This document shows, piece after piece, positions 57,852 to 60,648 of a stretch of 64,000 bases of DNA. The stretch's first letter is position 1, and each line of letters starts with the position of its first letter. The notes beneath the pieces were generated by a model. That model searched no databases, was not told the origin of the DNA, and saw only the letters and a list, made by a program, of their open reading frames with translations. Origin of the DNA: a virus (taxonomy: Duplodnaviria; Caudoviricetes); IMG/VR virus record IMGVR_UViG_2939319381_000001, positions 27,309 to 91,308 of that record; one strand, given 5' to 3'. Position numbers and translations under genes: made by a program.

Positions 57852-58162
57852 GCGACAACCTTCTCCTCCTCCACCAGCCCGCACCGGCCACGGCGCTGCA
57901 CACCGTCGCTGACGCCGTCGACTACTGCCGGTGCGACCGAGGCCCCGTCATCGGCGTCGTCACCTACACCGAGAGCCGCATGTGGTTCTTCCCCGTCGGC
58001 ACCCGGAACGGCGACAACCCCGAGGGCTCCCCCGAACTCTGCTGCGTCGACTGCCTGGCTGACACGGCGCAGCGGATCGCCTCCGGCGCCGTCCTGGCCG
58101 AGAGGCAGGCGGAGGTCAAGGTCGTCGCGGAAGGCCACGGCCGGACGGAGGGCGAGCGATGA
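57848..58162 (+). CDS. Hypothetical protein
   Basis: Bounded by junction repeats. Confidence 0.65.
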   Translation: MSDNLLLLHQPAPATALHTVADAVDYCRCDRGPVIGVVTYTESRMWFFPVGTRNGDNPEGSPELCCVDCLADTAQRIASGAVLAERQAEVKVVAEGHGRTEGER

Positions 58163-58566
58163 GCGAGATCACCGCCACCGAGTACGTCTACGGCATCGAC
58201 ACCAGCGTCGCTGACGACTCCCGGTTCGACCGGCCTCCCCATGCCGTGGCATTCCCCATCACCAAGAAGACGCCCAAGCGCGTCTACTACGACATCAACG
58301 GCCGGACCCGGTTCGTTGACCGTCAGCAGCTTGAGACTGACGGCAAGGTCCGGCGGACGGGCGGCTGGTGGGAGCACGACCTCACTGTCTACCTCTCCGA
58401 ACCCACCGTTGAGCAGCCGACAGGGCCGTCCCTGTCGGAGCTGAAGCAGGCCATGGCGGACGCCCACCCCGATCGGGCGAGCGGTAGCCACGAGGCGTTC
58501 ATCGCCGCCCGTGCCCGGTACGAGCGTGCGCGGGACAAGGCGAGCCGGACGGAGGGCGAGCGATGA
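58159..58566 (+). CDS. Hypothetical protein with C-terminal J-domain-like HPD motif
   Basis: 'LKQAMADAHPDRASGSHEAFIAARARYE'. Confidence 0.65.
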   Translation: MSEITATEYVYGIDTSVADDSRFDRPPHAVAFPITKKTPKRVYYDINGRTRFVDRQQLETDGKVRRTGGWWEHDLTVYLSEPTVEQPTGPSLSELKQAMADAHPDRASGSHEAFIAARARYERARDKASRTEGER

Positions 58567-59030
58567 GCGACAACCTCTACGGCGATGTCCTCGCGGCCGC
58601 ACCGCCTGTCCTCGCTGAAGCGGCGATCCGTCGGGTTCATGAACTCCTCGAAGCCGGGGCCGAGTCAGCCGACGTTCACGAGGTGGTCACCACGTCGGTC
58701 GCGCTGCTGAACATGCACCAGCGGAACCGGCCTGGCCGGAAGCGCGCCTGGCTGGCGAAGGTCACCAGCTTCGCGTTCCCCCGCACCTTCGCTACCGCCT
58801 GGGGCGACACGGGAGAGCACTACGTGTGCTTCACCGGCTCGATCACGAAGGGCGGCAAGCAGGCCGTCGGCCGCGAGATCGAGGTGCAGCTGCCCGTCGA
58901 TGACGCGGAACGGCTCGGGCAGCAGATGCTCCGCATGGTCGCGTTCCAGCGGGGCCAGACCACTCAGACTTCCCGAGCCGCCCAGGCGCAGGGACAGACC
59001 GAACCCAGCAAGGGGGATCAGGTGACGTAG
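58563..59030 (+). CDS. Hypothetical protein
   Basis: Starts within the junction repeat. Confidence 0.65.
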   Translation: MSDNLYGDVLAAAPPVLAEAAIRRVHELLEAGAESADVHEVVTTSVALLNMHQRNRPGRKRAWLAKVTSFAFPRTFATAWGDTGEHYVCFTGSITKGGKQAVGREIEVQLPVDDAERLGQQMLRMVAFQRGQTTQTSRAAQAQGQTEPSKGDQVT

Positions 59031-59220
59031 CGACTTCCTAAGCGGGAGGTCCTGGGCCCCTTGGCGGGGGCACTTCCTCTACCGCTGGCCGCTGATGTTG
59101 GCGCATCGTGCGCGGCCACTTCCTACGGCTCGGTTTGGCGACCGAGCTAAGGCCCGACTTCCGGATCCGGTTTGGCGACCGGGGCCGAGCAGGTCGAGCG
59201 ACTTCAGGTTCTGGCGAACC
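59031..59220. ncRNA. Candidate structured RNA: five hairpins with (U/C)UGGCG loops, upstream of rep-like gene
   Basis: Loops at 59061, 59098, 59135, 59172, 59211; stems differ in sequence but all pair. Confidence 0.6.
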
Positions 59221-59274
59221 CCACACCCACCGAAGCGGGCTTTCACATATCCGCAGAACGGAACGAGGTCCATA

Positions 59275-60648
59275 GTGCCGTACCCGAACAGTGCTTGTCA
59301 GCTTCCGCACGCCCGCATGGGCGATTCGCGGCAAAAGTCCGCCCCCGAACAGGGCACCCAGTGCCCCCCAATCGCCCCGTGGGCGCCCGTCAGTGCCACC
59401 GCCATGGAGATCGACACCACCACCTCCCGGCACACCGGACCCCGCAACTGGCTCCGCTCCGTCGAGTGGCTCATCGCCGCTGGCCTCCACCCCAAGGCCA
59501 ACCAGACGACCCTCCTCGTCGCCCAGGACCTCGCCAAGCGCATGGACTACAGCACCGGGCACGTCCGCTACGGACTCGAGGACATGGCTGTACGGCTCGA
59601 CCTTGACCGGTCCAGCGTCGCCCGCCACGTGAAGTACCTCCGGCAGCTGGGCTCTCTCGCCTGGGCCGCCCGTGGCACCCGCAGCAACGTCCGCCGCGCT
59701 CTCGGTCTCTCCGGGTACGCCGCCACCGCCACCGTGTACGCCGCCGTCATTCCGGCCGCCTACGACCACGCCATGGGCCACCGGATCATCGGCGAGGGGT
59801 ACGGGGCGAGGGTCGTCGTGGACCACCGTGCGACCCATACGAATGCGCCCGAATCGGCTGTGGATAACTCCCCTTCGGGCCTTGTGGATAACCCGGCTAA
59901 ACGATCTCTTGCGACCCCTTCCCTTACCCCAGCCACCTATGAAGGGCAGGTTCAGATGGCGGAGGGTGTAACTACTACCGCGACGCGGCAGCAAACCACC
60001 CCCAGCTCCCCCTCCCAGACGGCCAAGACCAACAGCGGCAGCAAGAAGCGGGCCACGATCCTCGGCAACACCGTGACCGCCCCCGGCATGCGCCTCGGAG
60101 ACCGCCTCGCCCGCGCCATCCGCCGCGCCGTCCCGTGGACCCGCCGCGCCACCCACGACCAGCTCCGGTGGATCTGCGCCGACATGGGCGAGCAGCAGTG
60201 GACCGAGGACCAGGCCGTACGGTTCGCCGTCGAGACCGGCCACAAGCACGCCGCCGGATACGCCTGGAACCCCCACCAGCCCCACCGGGTCCTCGCTGCC
60301 GCCCTCCGCACCGAAGACGCCAGCCAGGCCAAGGACATTCCCTTCGACCCGACGCACTCCGTCGCGTACGAGGACTCCACCGTCGCCCGCGACCGTGCCT
60401 CCCTCGAAGCGCTCTTCGCCCTCGGCCAGCCGTCCGACTCCGCCACGCACCCGGACGACATCCCTGCCGACCGGTACACCGACGACGACCGGCTCCGTGC
60501 CCGCCTCGACTGGAACACCTGGCCCGAGGTCGCCCGCCACTACGCCGACGACCCCGACGACGCCCTCGACCTCTACGGCACCGACCTCTGCTGCTACGCC
60601 AACCGCAAGGACGCCGAGACCTACCACCGCCAGGAGGCGTGGGCATGA
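59275..60648 (+). CDS. HTH-containing putative plasmid replication initiator (alternative start 59404)
   Basis: wHTH 'LEDMAVRLDLDRSSVARHVKYLRQLG'; internal DnaA boxes; adjacent to dciA-like gene and parAB. Confidence 0.6.
   Translation: MPYPNSACQLPHARMGDSRQKSAPEQGTQCPPIAPWAPVSATAMEIDTTTSRHTGPRNWLRSVEWLIAAGLHPKANQTTLLVAQDLAKRMDYSTGHVRYGLEDMAVRLDLDRSSVARHVKYLRQLGSLAWAARGTRSNVRRALGLSGYAATATVYAAVIPAAYDHAMGHRIIGEGYGARVVVDHRATHTNAPESAVDNSPSGLVDNPAKRSLATPSLTPATYEGQVQMAEGVTTTATRQQTTPSSPSQTAKTNSGSKKRATILGNTVTAPGMRLGDRLARAIRRAVPWTRRATHDQLRWICADMGEQQWTEDQAVRFAVETGHKHAAGYAWNPHQPHRVLAAALRTEDASQAKDIPFDPTHSVAYEDSTVARDRASLEALFALGQPSDSATHPDDIPADRYTDDDRLRARLDWNTWPEVARHYADDPDDALDLYGTDLCCYANRKDAETYHRQEAWA
59859..59891 (-). 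promoter_or_regulatory. Two DnaA boxes (TTATCCACA)
   Basis: TGTGGATAA at 59859-59867 and 59883-59891. Confidence 0.7.

What the first reader, a model, noticed from the sequence alone, without database searches (positions are those of the whole stretch)
59031..59220. Five tandem hairpins with conserved UUGGCG loops and freely varying stems, upstream of a rep-like gene
Seen: GCCCC-TTGGCG-GGGGC (59056-71), GATG-TTGGCG-CATC (59094-107, extended by GGCCGC/GCGGCC), GCTCGGT-TTGGCG-ACCGAGC (59128-47), CCGGT-TTGGCG-ACCGG (59167-82) and GGTT-CTGGCG-AACC (59207-20). Loops are spaced 37, 37, 37 and 39 nt. An ACTTC(C) motif recurs at 59033, 59072, 59118, 59157 and 59201. Stems differ in sequence yet all pair, which is the signature of selection on RNA or ssDNA structure rather than of a dsDNA iteron. 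Known: a 5'-UUGGCG-3' U-turn loop is the antisense-target/pseudoknot loop in rep leaders of IncI/IncB-type plasmids such as ColIb-P9, where it occurs once. Inference: this is a multimerised kissing-loop device for copy-number, incompatibility or lysis-lysogeny control, or a multivalent protein-binding RNA. A complementary CGCCA overlaps the alternative start ATG at 59400-59404, but such 5-mers are common at this GC content.
Basis: partly seen in the sequence, partly recalled or inferred. Interest (0 to 1): 0.85.

Follow-up and report, generated by a model that had tools for sequence, protein, structure and literature searches.

The report
Repeated-loop hairpin cassette before rep
In front of the replication gene of this Streptomyces phage-plasmid lies a conserved set of hairpins that all show the same six-letter loop; the loops change together between related plasmids, so the set probably controls copy number and which plasmids can share a cell.

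Summary
The hairpins are real and not chance. Four of them (59056-59182) carry TTGGCG loops. The fifth (59207-59220) is a different kind: its stem is conserved and its loop varies.

The window is part of a 91-kb pZL12-like Streptomyces phage-plasmid. The same cassette stands before rep in 31 fetched relatives, and its DNA is found in 56 PLSDB plasmids.

- Stems covary (93-100% Watson-Crick; 0 of 2000 re-deals reach this).
- Loops are uniform within an array but differ between arrays: TTGGCG, TTGACG, TTGCCG/TGCCAC, TTGCAG, or the reverse complement CGCCAA. None of 31 arrays mixes orientations.
- Near-identical cassettes precede Rep proteins only 27-33% identical, and ParB types do not track loops. 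So these are not Rep iterons, and a parS role is unlikely.
- No reading frame is conserved, and Rfam has no match.
- In 6 of 6 strains with two such plasmids, the two loop sets differ.

My best reading (0.45) is a counter-transcript, kissing-loop copy-number and incompatibility cassette. Transcription is unproven and the strand is unresolved. The ColIb-P9-type pseudoknot and the ACTTCC motif are not supported. This scan noted the same element before on other genomes.

The parts
59010..59030 (+). Conserved left boundary: purine-rich SD-like run, then GTG-ACG-TAG (start, Thr, stop). It is also the end of ORF 58563-59030.
   Evidence: In relatives the first codon is ATG, GTG or TTG, the second is ACN and the third is TAG or TAA. 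The frame relative to the GGAGAT run shifts in L125 and L013. The junction resembles those between the upstream cassette genes.
59042..59085 (.). Base stem S1 (GCGGGAGG 59042-49 with CCTC-TA-CCGC 59076-85) carrying hairpin HP1 (59056-71, loop TTGGCG 59061-66).
   Evidence: Flipped-loop relatives lack the apical hairpin but keep the base stem.
59087..59117 (.). Outer stem S2 (GGCCGC / GCGGCC) carrying hairpin HP2 (59094-59107, loop TTGGCG 59098-59103).
   Evidence: HP2 has 9 distinct stems, all 43 pairs Watson-Crick.
59128..59147 (.). Hairpin HP3, 7-bp stem, loop TTGGCG 59135-40.
   Evidence: 14 distinct stems in 31 sequences; 100 of 108 pairs Watson-Crick; 0 of 2000 re-deals reach this.
59148..59155 (.). 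Linker TAAGGCCC, with the core AAGGC unchanged in the 25-sequence alignment and T148 nearly so.
   Evidence: Invariant columns A108-C112 of alignment A1; T107 is nearly invariant (L004 has C). The linker is also present in flipped arrays.
59167..59182 (.). Hairpin HP4, loop TTGGCG 59172-77.
   Evidence: It is replaced by an unrelated small hairpin in L005, L021 and L029.
59207..59220 (.). Hairpin HP5, GGTTC-TGGC-GAACC: conserved or covarying stem, variable loop.
   Evidence: Stem variants are GCTTC/GAAGC, ACTGC/GCAGT and TGGGT/ACCCA. Loops differ in nearly every relative.
59226..59254 (.). Two overlapping alternative hairpins. T is CCCAC-CGAA-GCGGG (59226-39), followed by CTTTC. HP6 is GCGG (59235-38) ... 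CCGC (59251-54) with a T-rich loop.
   Evidence: listing. Both covary among relatives and share the G-rich arm. Read by eye from that listing. The simple scan calls no terminator here.
59272..59327 (.). Three invariant boxes: ATAGTG (59272-77), 17 nt, TTGTCAGC (59295-302), 17 nt, GGCGATTC (59320-27).
   Evidence: The spacing is 17 in 33 of 33 sequences and in 32 of 33. The spacers between the boxes vary.
59404..60648 (+). rep, an HTH initiator-like gene (type I), homologue of pZL12.20c.
   Evidence: PHROG 'replication initiation O-like', E 9.7e-5. No Pfam family. 88% identical to the pZL12 protein. Followed by SLOG-like, DciA and ParB genes.
59859..59891 (-). Two perfect DnaA boxes (TTATCCACA on the minus strand) 24 bp apart inside rep; probable origin.
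   Evidence: One or two such boxes occur at the same place in 18 of 18 type-I rep relatives and in 0 of 8 type-II.

Best explanation
This is a non-coding, structured control cassette at the head of the replication-partition module of pZL12-like Streptomyces phage-plasmids and of some larger Streptomyces plasmids. Three or four stem-loops display one and the same six-base loop.

I propose that it works as RNA. The rightward transcript that runs into rep and a counter-transcript from the opposite strand would fold into mirror-image multi-hairpin RNAs with complementary loops. UUGGCG is a YUNR-type loop, carried by one RNA or the other. Loop-loop kissing would then decide how much transcription or translation passes the hairpin-plus-T-run just downstream and reaches rep. 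That would set copy number.

A base change in the DNA alters both RNAs at once. A concerted loop change, or a flip of the hairpins, would therefore create a new incompatibility type without any protein having to co-evolve.

Shown here: the hairpins, their covariation, uniform loops within arrays, discrete loop classes and flips between arrays, independence from the Rep type with no tracking by ParB type, and different loop sets on co-resident plasmids.

Inferred: transcription of either strand, the counter-transcript and its promoter, kissing, and any effect on rep.
For: 1. Pairing is selected. The Watson-Crick fraction is 0.93-1.00 over 9-14 distinct stems per hairpin, against 0.49-0.73 when the 3' arms are re-dealt (0 of 2000 re-deals reach it). 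Asymmetric bulges and internal loops in S1 and S2 are kept across relatives. That fits a folded single strand better than a cruciform.
2. Loops are uniform within an array and fall into discrete classes between arrays. Intermediates exist (L006, L125 and L138 each keep one TTGGCG-type loop among three TTGACG loops).
3. Orientation: 21 arrays are plus-only, 10 minus-only and 0 of 31 mixed. A flip leaves a sense/antisense pair intact but would destroy strand-specific protein reading.
4. The cassette is modular. Window versus L131: cassette 93.8% identical, Rep 33%. L031 versus L108: cassette 98.5%, different Rep types. TTGACG arrays occur with both Rep types. ParB types do not track loop class.
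5. In 6 of 6 strains holding two cassette-bearing plasmids, the two loop sets differ.
6. Non-Watson-Crick pairs in the core stems are A.C or C.A on the plus strand in 9 of 12 cases and never G.T. These are G.U on the minus strand. HP3 pair 3 runs U-A, U.G, C-G on the minus strand.
7. A single loop base decides compatibility in IncK RNAI (abstract of PMC10724649).
Against: - No transcript evidence: no RNA run was listed for this DNA.
- No convincing promoter on either strand. The scan finds none. The best minus-strand candidate, cTGACA-18-CACTAT within the invariant boxes, matches only 8 of 12 consensus positions.
- No counter-transcript terminator is recognisable.
- A sense/antisense pair does not by itself require all loops to be identical or co-oriented.
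- The strand evidence is mixed. With identical columns, RNAalifold favours minus for 25 sequences (-30.0 vs -26.1) but plus for 21 (-42.2 vs -40.0). Single-sequence energies simply follow whichever strand carries UUGGCG. Hairpin HP6 has G.T on the plus strand.
- Several TTGCCG/TGCCAC-class loops lack a YUNR motif on either strand.
- The co-resident pairs are not independent: four share one TTGACG lineage, and two partner plasmids recur. In 3 of the 4 pairs whose Rep I compared, the Rep types also differ. Chance discordance is roughly 0.04-0.1 by my rough estimate.
Confidence: 0.45

Rival explanations
1. The hairpins are multiple binding sites, in RNA or in single-stranded DNA, for one unidentified loop-specific protein. 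One candidate is an N-like antiterminator acting at nut-like hairpins just before a terminator that guards the replication genes, as in lambda (nutR, tR1, then O and P).
For: Identical, co-oriented loops within an array are what several sites for one protein would look like. The array lies just upstream of a hairpin-plus-T-run and of an O-like initiator and a helicase-loader gene. Loop classes could be specificity types.
Against: pZL12 and the window share an 88% identical Rep and collinear flanks, yet all loops are reverse-complemented. A strand-specific reader would have had to change completely. Plus-strand stems carry A.C mismatches, never G.U. No candidate protein was identified, and the two obvious ones, Rep and ParB, do not track the loops.
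Confidence: 0.22
2. The repeats are the iterons or origin of the plasmid, read by the Rep protein encoded just downstream. Rep-plus-iteron loci are reported for other Streptomyces theta plasmids.
For: The position is directly upstream of rep. Streptomyces rep/iteron loci with inverted repeats are known, and RepA of pWTY27 binds a long inverted repeat (PMC3583192, passages read). The pZL12 paper reports a repA replication locus, but I could not read it.
Against: Near-identical arrays precede Rep types only 27-33% identical, with different HTH regions. The arms vary while the centre is constant, which is the reverse of a dimer-bound inverted repeat. Type-I rep genes carry their own conserved DnaA boxes inside the gene (18 of 18). 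A more distant Rep relative, L010, has plain direct repeats instead.
Confidence: 0.05
3. The array is the centromere (parS) of the downstream ParAB system, and the loop hexamers are specificity boxes.
For: A par operon lies about 3 kb downstream. Partition sites can determine incompatibility. As I recall, P1 parS uses a hexamer box as a species determinant; I did not check this.
Against: ParB types do not track loop class. L088 (TTGGCG) has a pZL12-type ParA/ParB (80% and 68% identical), whereas pZL12 itself has flipped loops. L081 and L131 have the window's ParB type. The arms are not conserved as in known parS palindromes. Rep and other genes lie between the array and par.
Confidence: 0.05
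4. The hairpins are a cluster of structural palindromes without a specific reader: stabilisers at the 3' end of the upstream operon, or REP-like elements. Gene conversion and template switching would keep the loops uniform.
For: The array ends the upstream co-directional gene set and is followed by a terminator-like hairpin. Loop flips and block-wise arm changes are the signature of template switching at palindromes. HP3 and HP4 of the window share 14 identical bases.
Against: The loop hexamer is held over cassettes whose flanks have diverged to 60-80% identity. Discrete loop classes occur, and co-resident plasmids differ 6 of 6. The element is single-copy, unlike REP elements.
Confidence: 0.12
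5. The hairpins are a single-strand initiation (priming) signal, used when the minus strand is exposed as lagging-strand template by a fork leaving the origin inside rep.
For: Several adjacent hairpins near an origin. The mismatch pattern favours the minus strand, which would be the lagging-strand template of a leftward fork from the DnaA boxes.
Against: Flips put a different loop on that fixed strand. The cassette is also kept before type-II rep genes that lack the DnaA boxes. This reading gives no reason for different loops on co-resident plasmids.
Confidence: 0.05

Closest known systems
Inc RNA / repZ leader of IncI-alpha plasmid ColIb-P9, and I-complex RNAI / stem-loop I
   Same: The loop sequence is the same, 5'-UUGGCG-3', in a hairpin upstream of a rep gene (paper title seen in reference lists). 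In that family loop bases decide incompatibility, and one base suffices in IncK (abstract of PMC10724649).
   Different: There, a single target hairpin lies about 100 nt before rep. A CGCC next to the rep SD forms a pseudoknot with the loop, and a leader peptide is needed (PMC4705826, passages read). Here there are 3-4 hairpins, 230-345 nt upstream, and the loops may be reverse-complemented. No co-varying CGCC was found and no conserved leader ORF. The host phylum and the Rep family are unrelated.
Multi-stem-loop counter-transcripts: ColE1 RNA I / RNA II, and pIP501 RNAIII or pT181 attenuation (details recalled, not checked)
   Same: Three or four consecutive stem-loops over about 150 nt upstream of the replication function. 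A terminator-like hairpin follows. The control module is independent of initiator specificity.
   Different: In those systems the loops differ from one another, and the promoters, terminators and RNAs are mapped. Here all loops are identical and co-oriented, and no transcript is known.
Lambda nutR - tR1 - O - P arrangement (recalled)
   Same: A small hairpin with a specific loop stands before a terminator that guards an O-like initiator and a helicase-loader gene. The origin lies inside the initiator gene (DnaA boxes).
   Different: Lambda has one boxB per nut site plus a linear boxA and an N protein. Here no N-like protein is identified, and the flips argue against a strand-specific protein reader.
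Streptomyces rep-plus-iteron replication loci (pWTY27, pFP1, pFP11, SCP2)
   Same: A non-coding repeat region directly upstream of rep in a Streptomyces theta replicon. pWTY27 RepA was proposed to recognise a folded inverted repeat (PMC3583192).
   Different: Those repeats are direct and inverted copies of one 7-8 bp sequence bound by their own Rep. Here the arms vary, the centre is constant, and the array does not follow the Rep type.

Membership tests
IncI/IncB-type Inc RNA control (ColIb-P9) | A hairpin with a UUGGCG loop in the rep leader | tested here: inconclusive
   The loop sequence is present four times. It is unknown whether the array is part of the rep mRNA. In 10 of 31 arrays the loops are of the reverse-complement type.
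IncI/IncB-type Inc RNA control (ColIb-P9) | A CGCC next to the rep SD or start that pairs with the GGCG of the loop (pseudoknot) | tested here: not met
   CGCCA at 59400-04 is absent in L003. It is unchanged in pZL12, where the loops are CGCCAA. No position-conserved co-varying complement lies within 1.5 kb either side in 28 relatives.
IncI/IncB-type Inc RNA control (ColIb-P9) | A leader peptide ORF running through the target hairpin | tested here: not met
   The frames from the upstream stop and from the HP1 TTG to the conserved TAA are not conserved, and in-frame stops occur. No minus-strand ORF is conserved either.
Antisense-RNA (counter-transcript) copy control in general | A constitutive antisense promoter and a short antisense RNA | not testable with these tools
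   The promoter scan found nothing at its thresholds. No RNA run was listed.
Antisense-RNA (counter-transcript) copy control in general | Loop bases determine incompatibility, so related compatible replicons differ in their loops | tested here: met
   In 6 of 6 same-strain plasmid pairs the loop sets differ: four are TTGACG vs TTGGCG, one is GCCA-type vs TTGGCG, and one is TTGCCG/TGCCAC vs TTGCAG with one loop shared. The pairs are not fully independent.
Iteron origin read by Rep | The repeats co-vary with the cognate Rep | tested here: not met
   Cassettes 93.8% and 98.5% identical stand before Rep proteins of different types, 27-33% identical.
Iteron origin read by Rep | Repeat units of conserved double-stranded sequence (about 17-22 bp) | tested here: not met
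   Only the central 6 bases are shared. The arms differ between units and covary. Tandem Repeats Finder reports no array here.
ParB centromere (parS) | The sites co-vary with the ParB type | tested here: not met
   TTGGCG arrays occur with both ParB types, and the flipped pZL12 shares its ParB type with L088. Only about 9 loci reached parB.
Any Rfam family | A covariance-model match | tested here: not met
   cmscan of 58000-60500, both strands, E up to 10. The only match is Guanidine-II at 58421-58457 (16.7 bits against a gathering score of 32), outside the array. ARAGORN found no tRNA or tmRNA.

The most novel reading that the evidence does not exclude
This would be a previously undescribed family of replication-control cassettes in Streptomyces phage-plasmids and large plasmids. 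Three or four hairpins present identical U-turn loops, the same UUGGCG used by enterobacterial IncI plasmids and reached independently. New incompatibility types would arise by concerted one-base loop changes or by flipping every hairpin. The cassette is exchanged freely between unrelated Rep and Par modules.
Probability: 0.4. Interest if true: 0.8.

Novelty: new variant of a known kind. Interest (0 to 1): 0.66.

Why it matters
Copy-number and incompatibility control is essentially uncharted for large Streptomyces plasmids and for actinobacterial phage-plasmids. If this reading holds, it gives four things.

- A sequence-readable incompatibility marker, the loop class, for at least 56 sequenced Streptomyces plasmids.
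- A second, independent use of the UUGGCG loop, which bears on why that loop is favoured for fast RNA recognition.
- A natural example of specificity switching by concerted change or inversion of several identical loops.
- A compact, swappable control module that could be used to build compatible Streptomyces vectors.

If instead a protein reads the loops, the cassette points to an unknown hairpin-loop-specific binding protein.

Tried and rejected
**Coding.** The frame from the upstream TAG to the conserved TAA is a multiple of three in only 18 of 29 relatives and contains stops. The frame from the HP1 TTG is not kept. The minus-strand ORF 59273-59079 is not conserved. Rejected.

**Cis partner.** The reverse complement of each array's loop was sought within 1.5 kb either side in 28 relatives. 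No position-conserved site was found; pZL12 has none at all.

**Trans partner.** No hairpin with the complementary hexaloop occurs elsewhere in the 91,308-bp element. The two weak 4-bp cases look like chance. The array is single-copy.

**Database and scan searches.**
- Rfam: nothing.
- tRNA/tmRNA: none.
- Tandem Repeats Finder: no array.
- Promoter/terminator scan: 0 sites.
- PDB sequence search with Rep: 0 hits.
- Pfam on Rep: no family.
- Protein atlas: only an HTH_36 lead on 11% of one cluster.

**Folding energy versus shuffles.** No signal.

**RNA evidence.** No RNA holder was listed.

**The count of structure pairs.** I aligned 24-nt HP3 windows (A3), but MAFFT did not keep the arms in register. 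The tool was not used; the counts come from my own script.

**Strand.** RNAalifold and MFE comparisons gave mixed answers.

**NBC_00826.** The two copies lie symmetrically about 78 kb from each end of a linear 892-kb record. They are terminal inverted repeats and so uninformative.

**Rows dropped.**
- L092 was left out of the per-hairpin table because it has no TAAGG anchor.
- L044 duplicates L041.
- L136 (pCQ3) did not match the box pattern and was not analysed.
- HP4 of L005, L021 and L029 and HP1 of L088 carry other loops.
- Same-species PLSDB records without strain names (S. anulatus, S. europaeiscabiei, S. albidoflavus, S. tubercidicus) were not tested as pairs.

**Literature.** Searches found no description of these hairpins. 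Zhong et al. 2010 on pZL12 (PMC2897331) and PMC1170848 are not held. Supplements were not consulted. The pZL12 paper may already describe this non-coding region, so the novelty claim is limited to what I could search.

**Not run.** Structure prediction, complex prediction, the large protein searches and a covariance model.
Full report
**What is in the window.**
Between the stop of ORF 58563-59030 and the rep-like gene (ATG 59404) lie four short perfect hairpins. Each closes the loop TTGGCG, and the loop starts (59061, 59098, 59135, 59172) are exactly 37 nt apart. A fifth hairpin follows at 59207-59220.

Two of the hairpins sit on longer imperfect stems. GCGGGAGG (59042-49) pairs with CCTC-TA-CCGC (59076-85) around HP1. 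GGCCGC (59087-92) pairs with GCGGCC (59112-17) around HP2.

Of the 69 TTGGCG/CGCCAA sites in the window, only these four are flanked by a stem of 4 or more perfect pairs. The background for a random hexamer is about 0.006. No other such hairpin exists in the whole 91,308-bp element, and the array is single-copy.

Folding energy does not stand out from shuffles in this 65-70% G+C DNA. Energy is therefore not the argument.

**Context.**
The window is bases 27309-91308 of a 91,308-bp virus record with terminal repeats. Its nearest named relatives are the Streptomyces plasmid-phage pZL12 (86.7% identity over rep-dciA) and Streptomyces plasmids of about 85-95 kb.

The gene after the array has no Pfam family and matches PHROG 'replication initiation O-like' only weakly (E 9.7e-5). 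It is followed by a SLOG-like gene, a DciA gene and a ParB gene. It contains two perfect DnaA boxes 24 bp apart.

I could not read the 2010 pZL12 paper. That this gene is its 'repA' is therefore my inference.

**Comparative set.**
I collected 11 loci with the Rep protein from genome contigs. I also scanned IMG/VR with two invariant 8-mers of the leader. I kept only those that also had ATAGTG within 60 nt upstream, which left 21.

With pZL12, L004 and the window this gives 33 sequences, 32 after removing one duplicate.

Separately, the 326-nt region matches 56 PLSDB plasmids, all Streptomyces, 40 of them over at least 80% of its length. I fetched 15 of these regions.

**Structure is conserved.**
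The hairpins keep their places between collinear conserved segments, including the invariant linker core AAGGC, while their stems change.

| Hairpin | Sequences | Distinct stems | Watson-Crick pairs |
|---|---|---|---|
| HP1 | 25 | 9 | 55 of 57 |
| HP2 | 31 | 9 | 43 of 43 |
| HP3 | 31 | 14 | 100 of 108 |
| HP4 | 28 | 9 | 47 of 49 |

Re-dealing the 3' arms among variants gives mean Watson-Crick fractions of 0.49-0.73. It never reaches the observed values (0 of 2000 for each hairpin).

RNAalifold on a plain MAFFT alignment recovers HP1-HP3 and S2 on both strands. The bulge in S1 and the asymmetric internal loop in S2 are kept across relatives.

The fifth hairpin also covaries (GGTTC/GAACC, GCTTC/GAAGC, ACTGC/GCAGT, TGGGT/ACCCA), but its loop differs in almost every relative. 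Its CTGGCG in the window is therefore a coincidence.

**Loops behave as a unit.**
Within an array all loops are the same or nearly so. Between arrays they fall into classes:
- TTGGCG, the majority
- TTGACG (L006, L125 and four PLSDB phage-plasmids)
- TTGCCG/TGCCAC-type (L004, L008, L100, L127, L147, L148)
- TTGCAG (L149)
- TTACCAG (L092)
- CGCCAA (pZL12, L022, L027, L031, L034, L108)

CGCCAA is the exact reverse complement of TTGGCG. In those arrays each hairpin is inverted in place, while the flanking segments keep their order and orientation.

Scoring each loop by which strand carries the TGGC or TGACG core, 21 arrays are plus-only, 10 are minus-only and none of 31 is mixed. Partial conversions exist: three TTGACG loops plus one remaining TTGGCG-type loop, at different positions in L006 and in L125/L138.

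The 37-nt period and the ACTTCC motif are features of the window's own lineage, not of the family.

**What it is not.**

*Not coding.* No frame is conserved on either strand.

*Not a known RNA.* No Rfam family matches, and there is no tRNA or tmRNA.

*Not Rep iterons.* Two Rep types, only 27-33% identical and with different HTH regions, stand behind near-identical cassettes. The window and L131 are 93.8% identical from S1 to the last box. L031 and L108 are 98.5% identical. TTGACG arrays occur with both Rep types. Type-I rep genes carry their own DnaA boxes at a fixed place (18 of 18), while type-II genes have none (0 of 8). The origin function therefore appears to travel with rep, not with the cassette.

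*Probably not parS.* ParB types do not follow loop class in the roughly nine loci that reach parB.

*Not the ColIb-P9 arrangement.* The CGCCA at the rep start is missing in L003 and is unchanged in pZL12 despite the flipped loops. No co-varying complement is found nearby.

**Co-resident plasmids.**
An earlier report of this scan on another genome (e1-6232310) said that the loops differ between plasmids sharing a cell. I tested this on every pair of records with the same strain name among the 56 PLSDB matches.

| Strain | One plasmid | Other plasmid |
|---|---|---|
| NBC_00873 | TTGACG array | TTGGCG array |
| NBC_00842 | TTGACG array | TTGGCG array |
| NBC_01240 | TTGACG array | TTGGCG array |
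| NBC_01369 | TTGACG array | TTGGCG array |
| NBC_01238 | GCCA-type array | TTGGCG array |
| NBC_01525 | TTGCCG/TGCCAC array | mainly TTGCAG array (one loop shared) |

That is 6 of 6 discordant and 0 concordant.

Caveats:
- The four TTGACG plasmids are one lineage.
- Two partner plasmids recur.
- In 3 of the 4 pairs compared, the Rep types differ as well.
- By my rough estimate chance would give this result with a probability of about 0.04-0.1.

**Strand, and RNA versus DNA.**
Among the 12 non-Watson-Crick positions in distinct core stems, 9 are A.C or C.A on the plus strand and none is G.T. On the minus strand these are G.U wobbles. One HP3 pair runs U-A, U.G, C-G on the minus strand.

The minus-strand alignment folds better when re-aligned (-35.3 vs -26.1 kcal/mol).

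Against this:
- With identical columns the advantage is small (-30.0 vs -26.1) and reverses in the 21-sequence subset.
- Single-sequence energies simply follow the strand that carries UUGGCG.
- The hairpin after HP5 has G.T on the plus strand.

I therefore leave the strand open.

A cruciform is unlikely. Stems are as short as 4 bp and the conserved bulges are asymmetric.

A strand-specific protein reader is hard to reconcile with the flips between close relatives. A sense/antisense RNA pair is symmetric to a flip, needs no co-evolving protein, and changes specificity by a DNA change alone.

**Mechanism proposed.**
Rightward transcription from the co-directional upstream genes enters the cassette. 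A counter-transcript covering the same hairpins kisses it through three or four identical loops. The outcome is set at the hairpin-plus-T-run that follows HP5 in many relatives (seen in the listing, not counted; the scan tool calls none), or further on in the rep leader.

The three invariant boxes ATAGTG-17-TTGTCAGC-17-GGCGATTC keep their spacing in 33 of 33 and 32 of 33 sequences. They are the obvious candidates for promoter or operator elements. Read on the minus strand, two of them resemble a weak -35/-10 pair pointing into the array, but this is not convincing.

Everything from 'is transcribed' onward is inference.

**Known systems.**
The UUGGCG loop is that of the Inc RNA target in ColIb-P9 (title seen). 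Single loop bases set compatibility in IncK (abstract).

The multi-loop architecture resembles ColE1 RNA I/II and the pIP501/pT181 attenuation systems. The position before a terminator and an O-like/loader pair resembles lambda nutR-tR1-O-P. These last comparisons are recalled, not checked.

The defining features of ColIb-P9 control other than the loop were tested and not met.

**Novelty.**
I found no paper describing these hairpins. The key pZL12 paper was not available to me.

Several first-stage notes and one follow-up of this scan describe the same cassette in other genomes. My conclusions agree with that follow-up. They add the Rep-type and ParB-type tests, the flip census, and the pair test on six strains.

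Noticed in passing
window 59859-59867 and 59883-59891: Two perfect DnaA boxes lie inside the linker of rep. One or two boxes (TGTGGAYAA on the plus strand) occur at the same relative place in 18 of 18 type-I rep relatives and in 0 of 8 type-II. This suggests an origin inside the gene, as in lambda O.
   Followed up: partly
window 59272-59327: Three invariant boxes, ATAGTG, TTGTCAGC and GGCGATTC, are separated by variable spacers of exactly 17 nt (33 of 33 and 32 of 33 sequences). Their function is unknown; they could be a promoter/operator or a leader RNA motif. In L143/L146 two of the boxes are altered.
   Followed up: partly
window 59010-59030: An SD-like run followed by start-Thr-stop is conserved as nucleotides at the left edge of the cassette, whatever gene lies upstream. 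The first codon varies among ATG, GTG and TTG. It looks like a relic or a working copy of the coupling junctions between the upstream cassette genes (57848, 58159, 58563).
   Followed up: partly
window 59226-59254: Two mutually exclusive hairpins share the arm GCGGG. One is followed by a T-run. The other encloses the T-run in its loop. Both covary among relatives. On the minus strand the first often has a UUCG, CUCG or CUUG loop.
   Followed up: partly
L131, L125, L045, L081, L021, L088, L127, L092, L108 (downstream of the cassette): A second Rep type, 27-33% identical to the window's and without DnaA boxes, replaces the first behind the same cassette. The exchange point lies just after the GGCGATTC box.
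   Followed up: partly
L151 and L152 (NZ_CP108874.1, 78251-78586 and 813694-814029): An 892-kb linear Streptomyces plasmid carries the cassette twice, symmetrically about 78 kb from each end. The copies therefore lie in its terminal inverted repeats.
   Followed up: no
L010 2300-2500: A more distant Rep relative (40% identical) has no hairpin cassette. It has two direct copies of a 13-base repeat upstream of rep instead.
   Followed up: no
window 58968-58973: A further GACTTCC copy lies inside the 3' end of the upstream ORF. In pZL12 the homologous 28-codon stretch stands alone after a methyltransferase gene.
   Followed up: no
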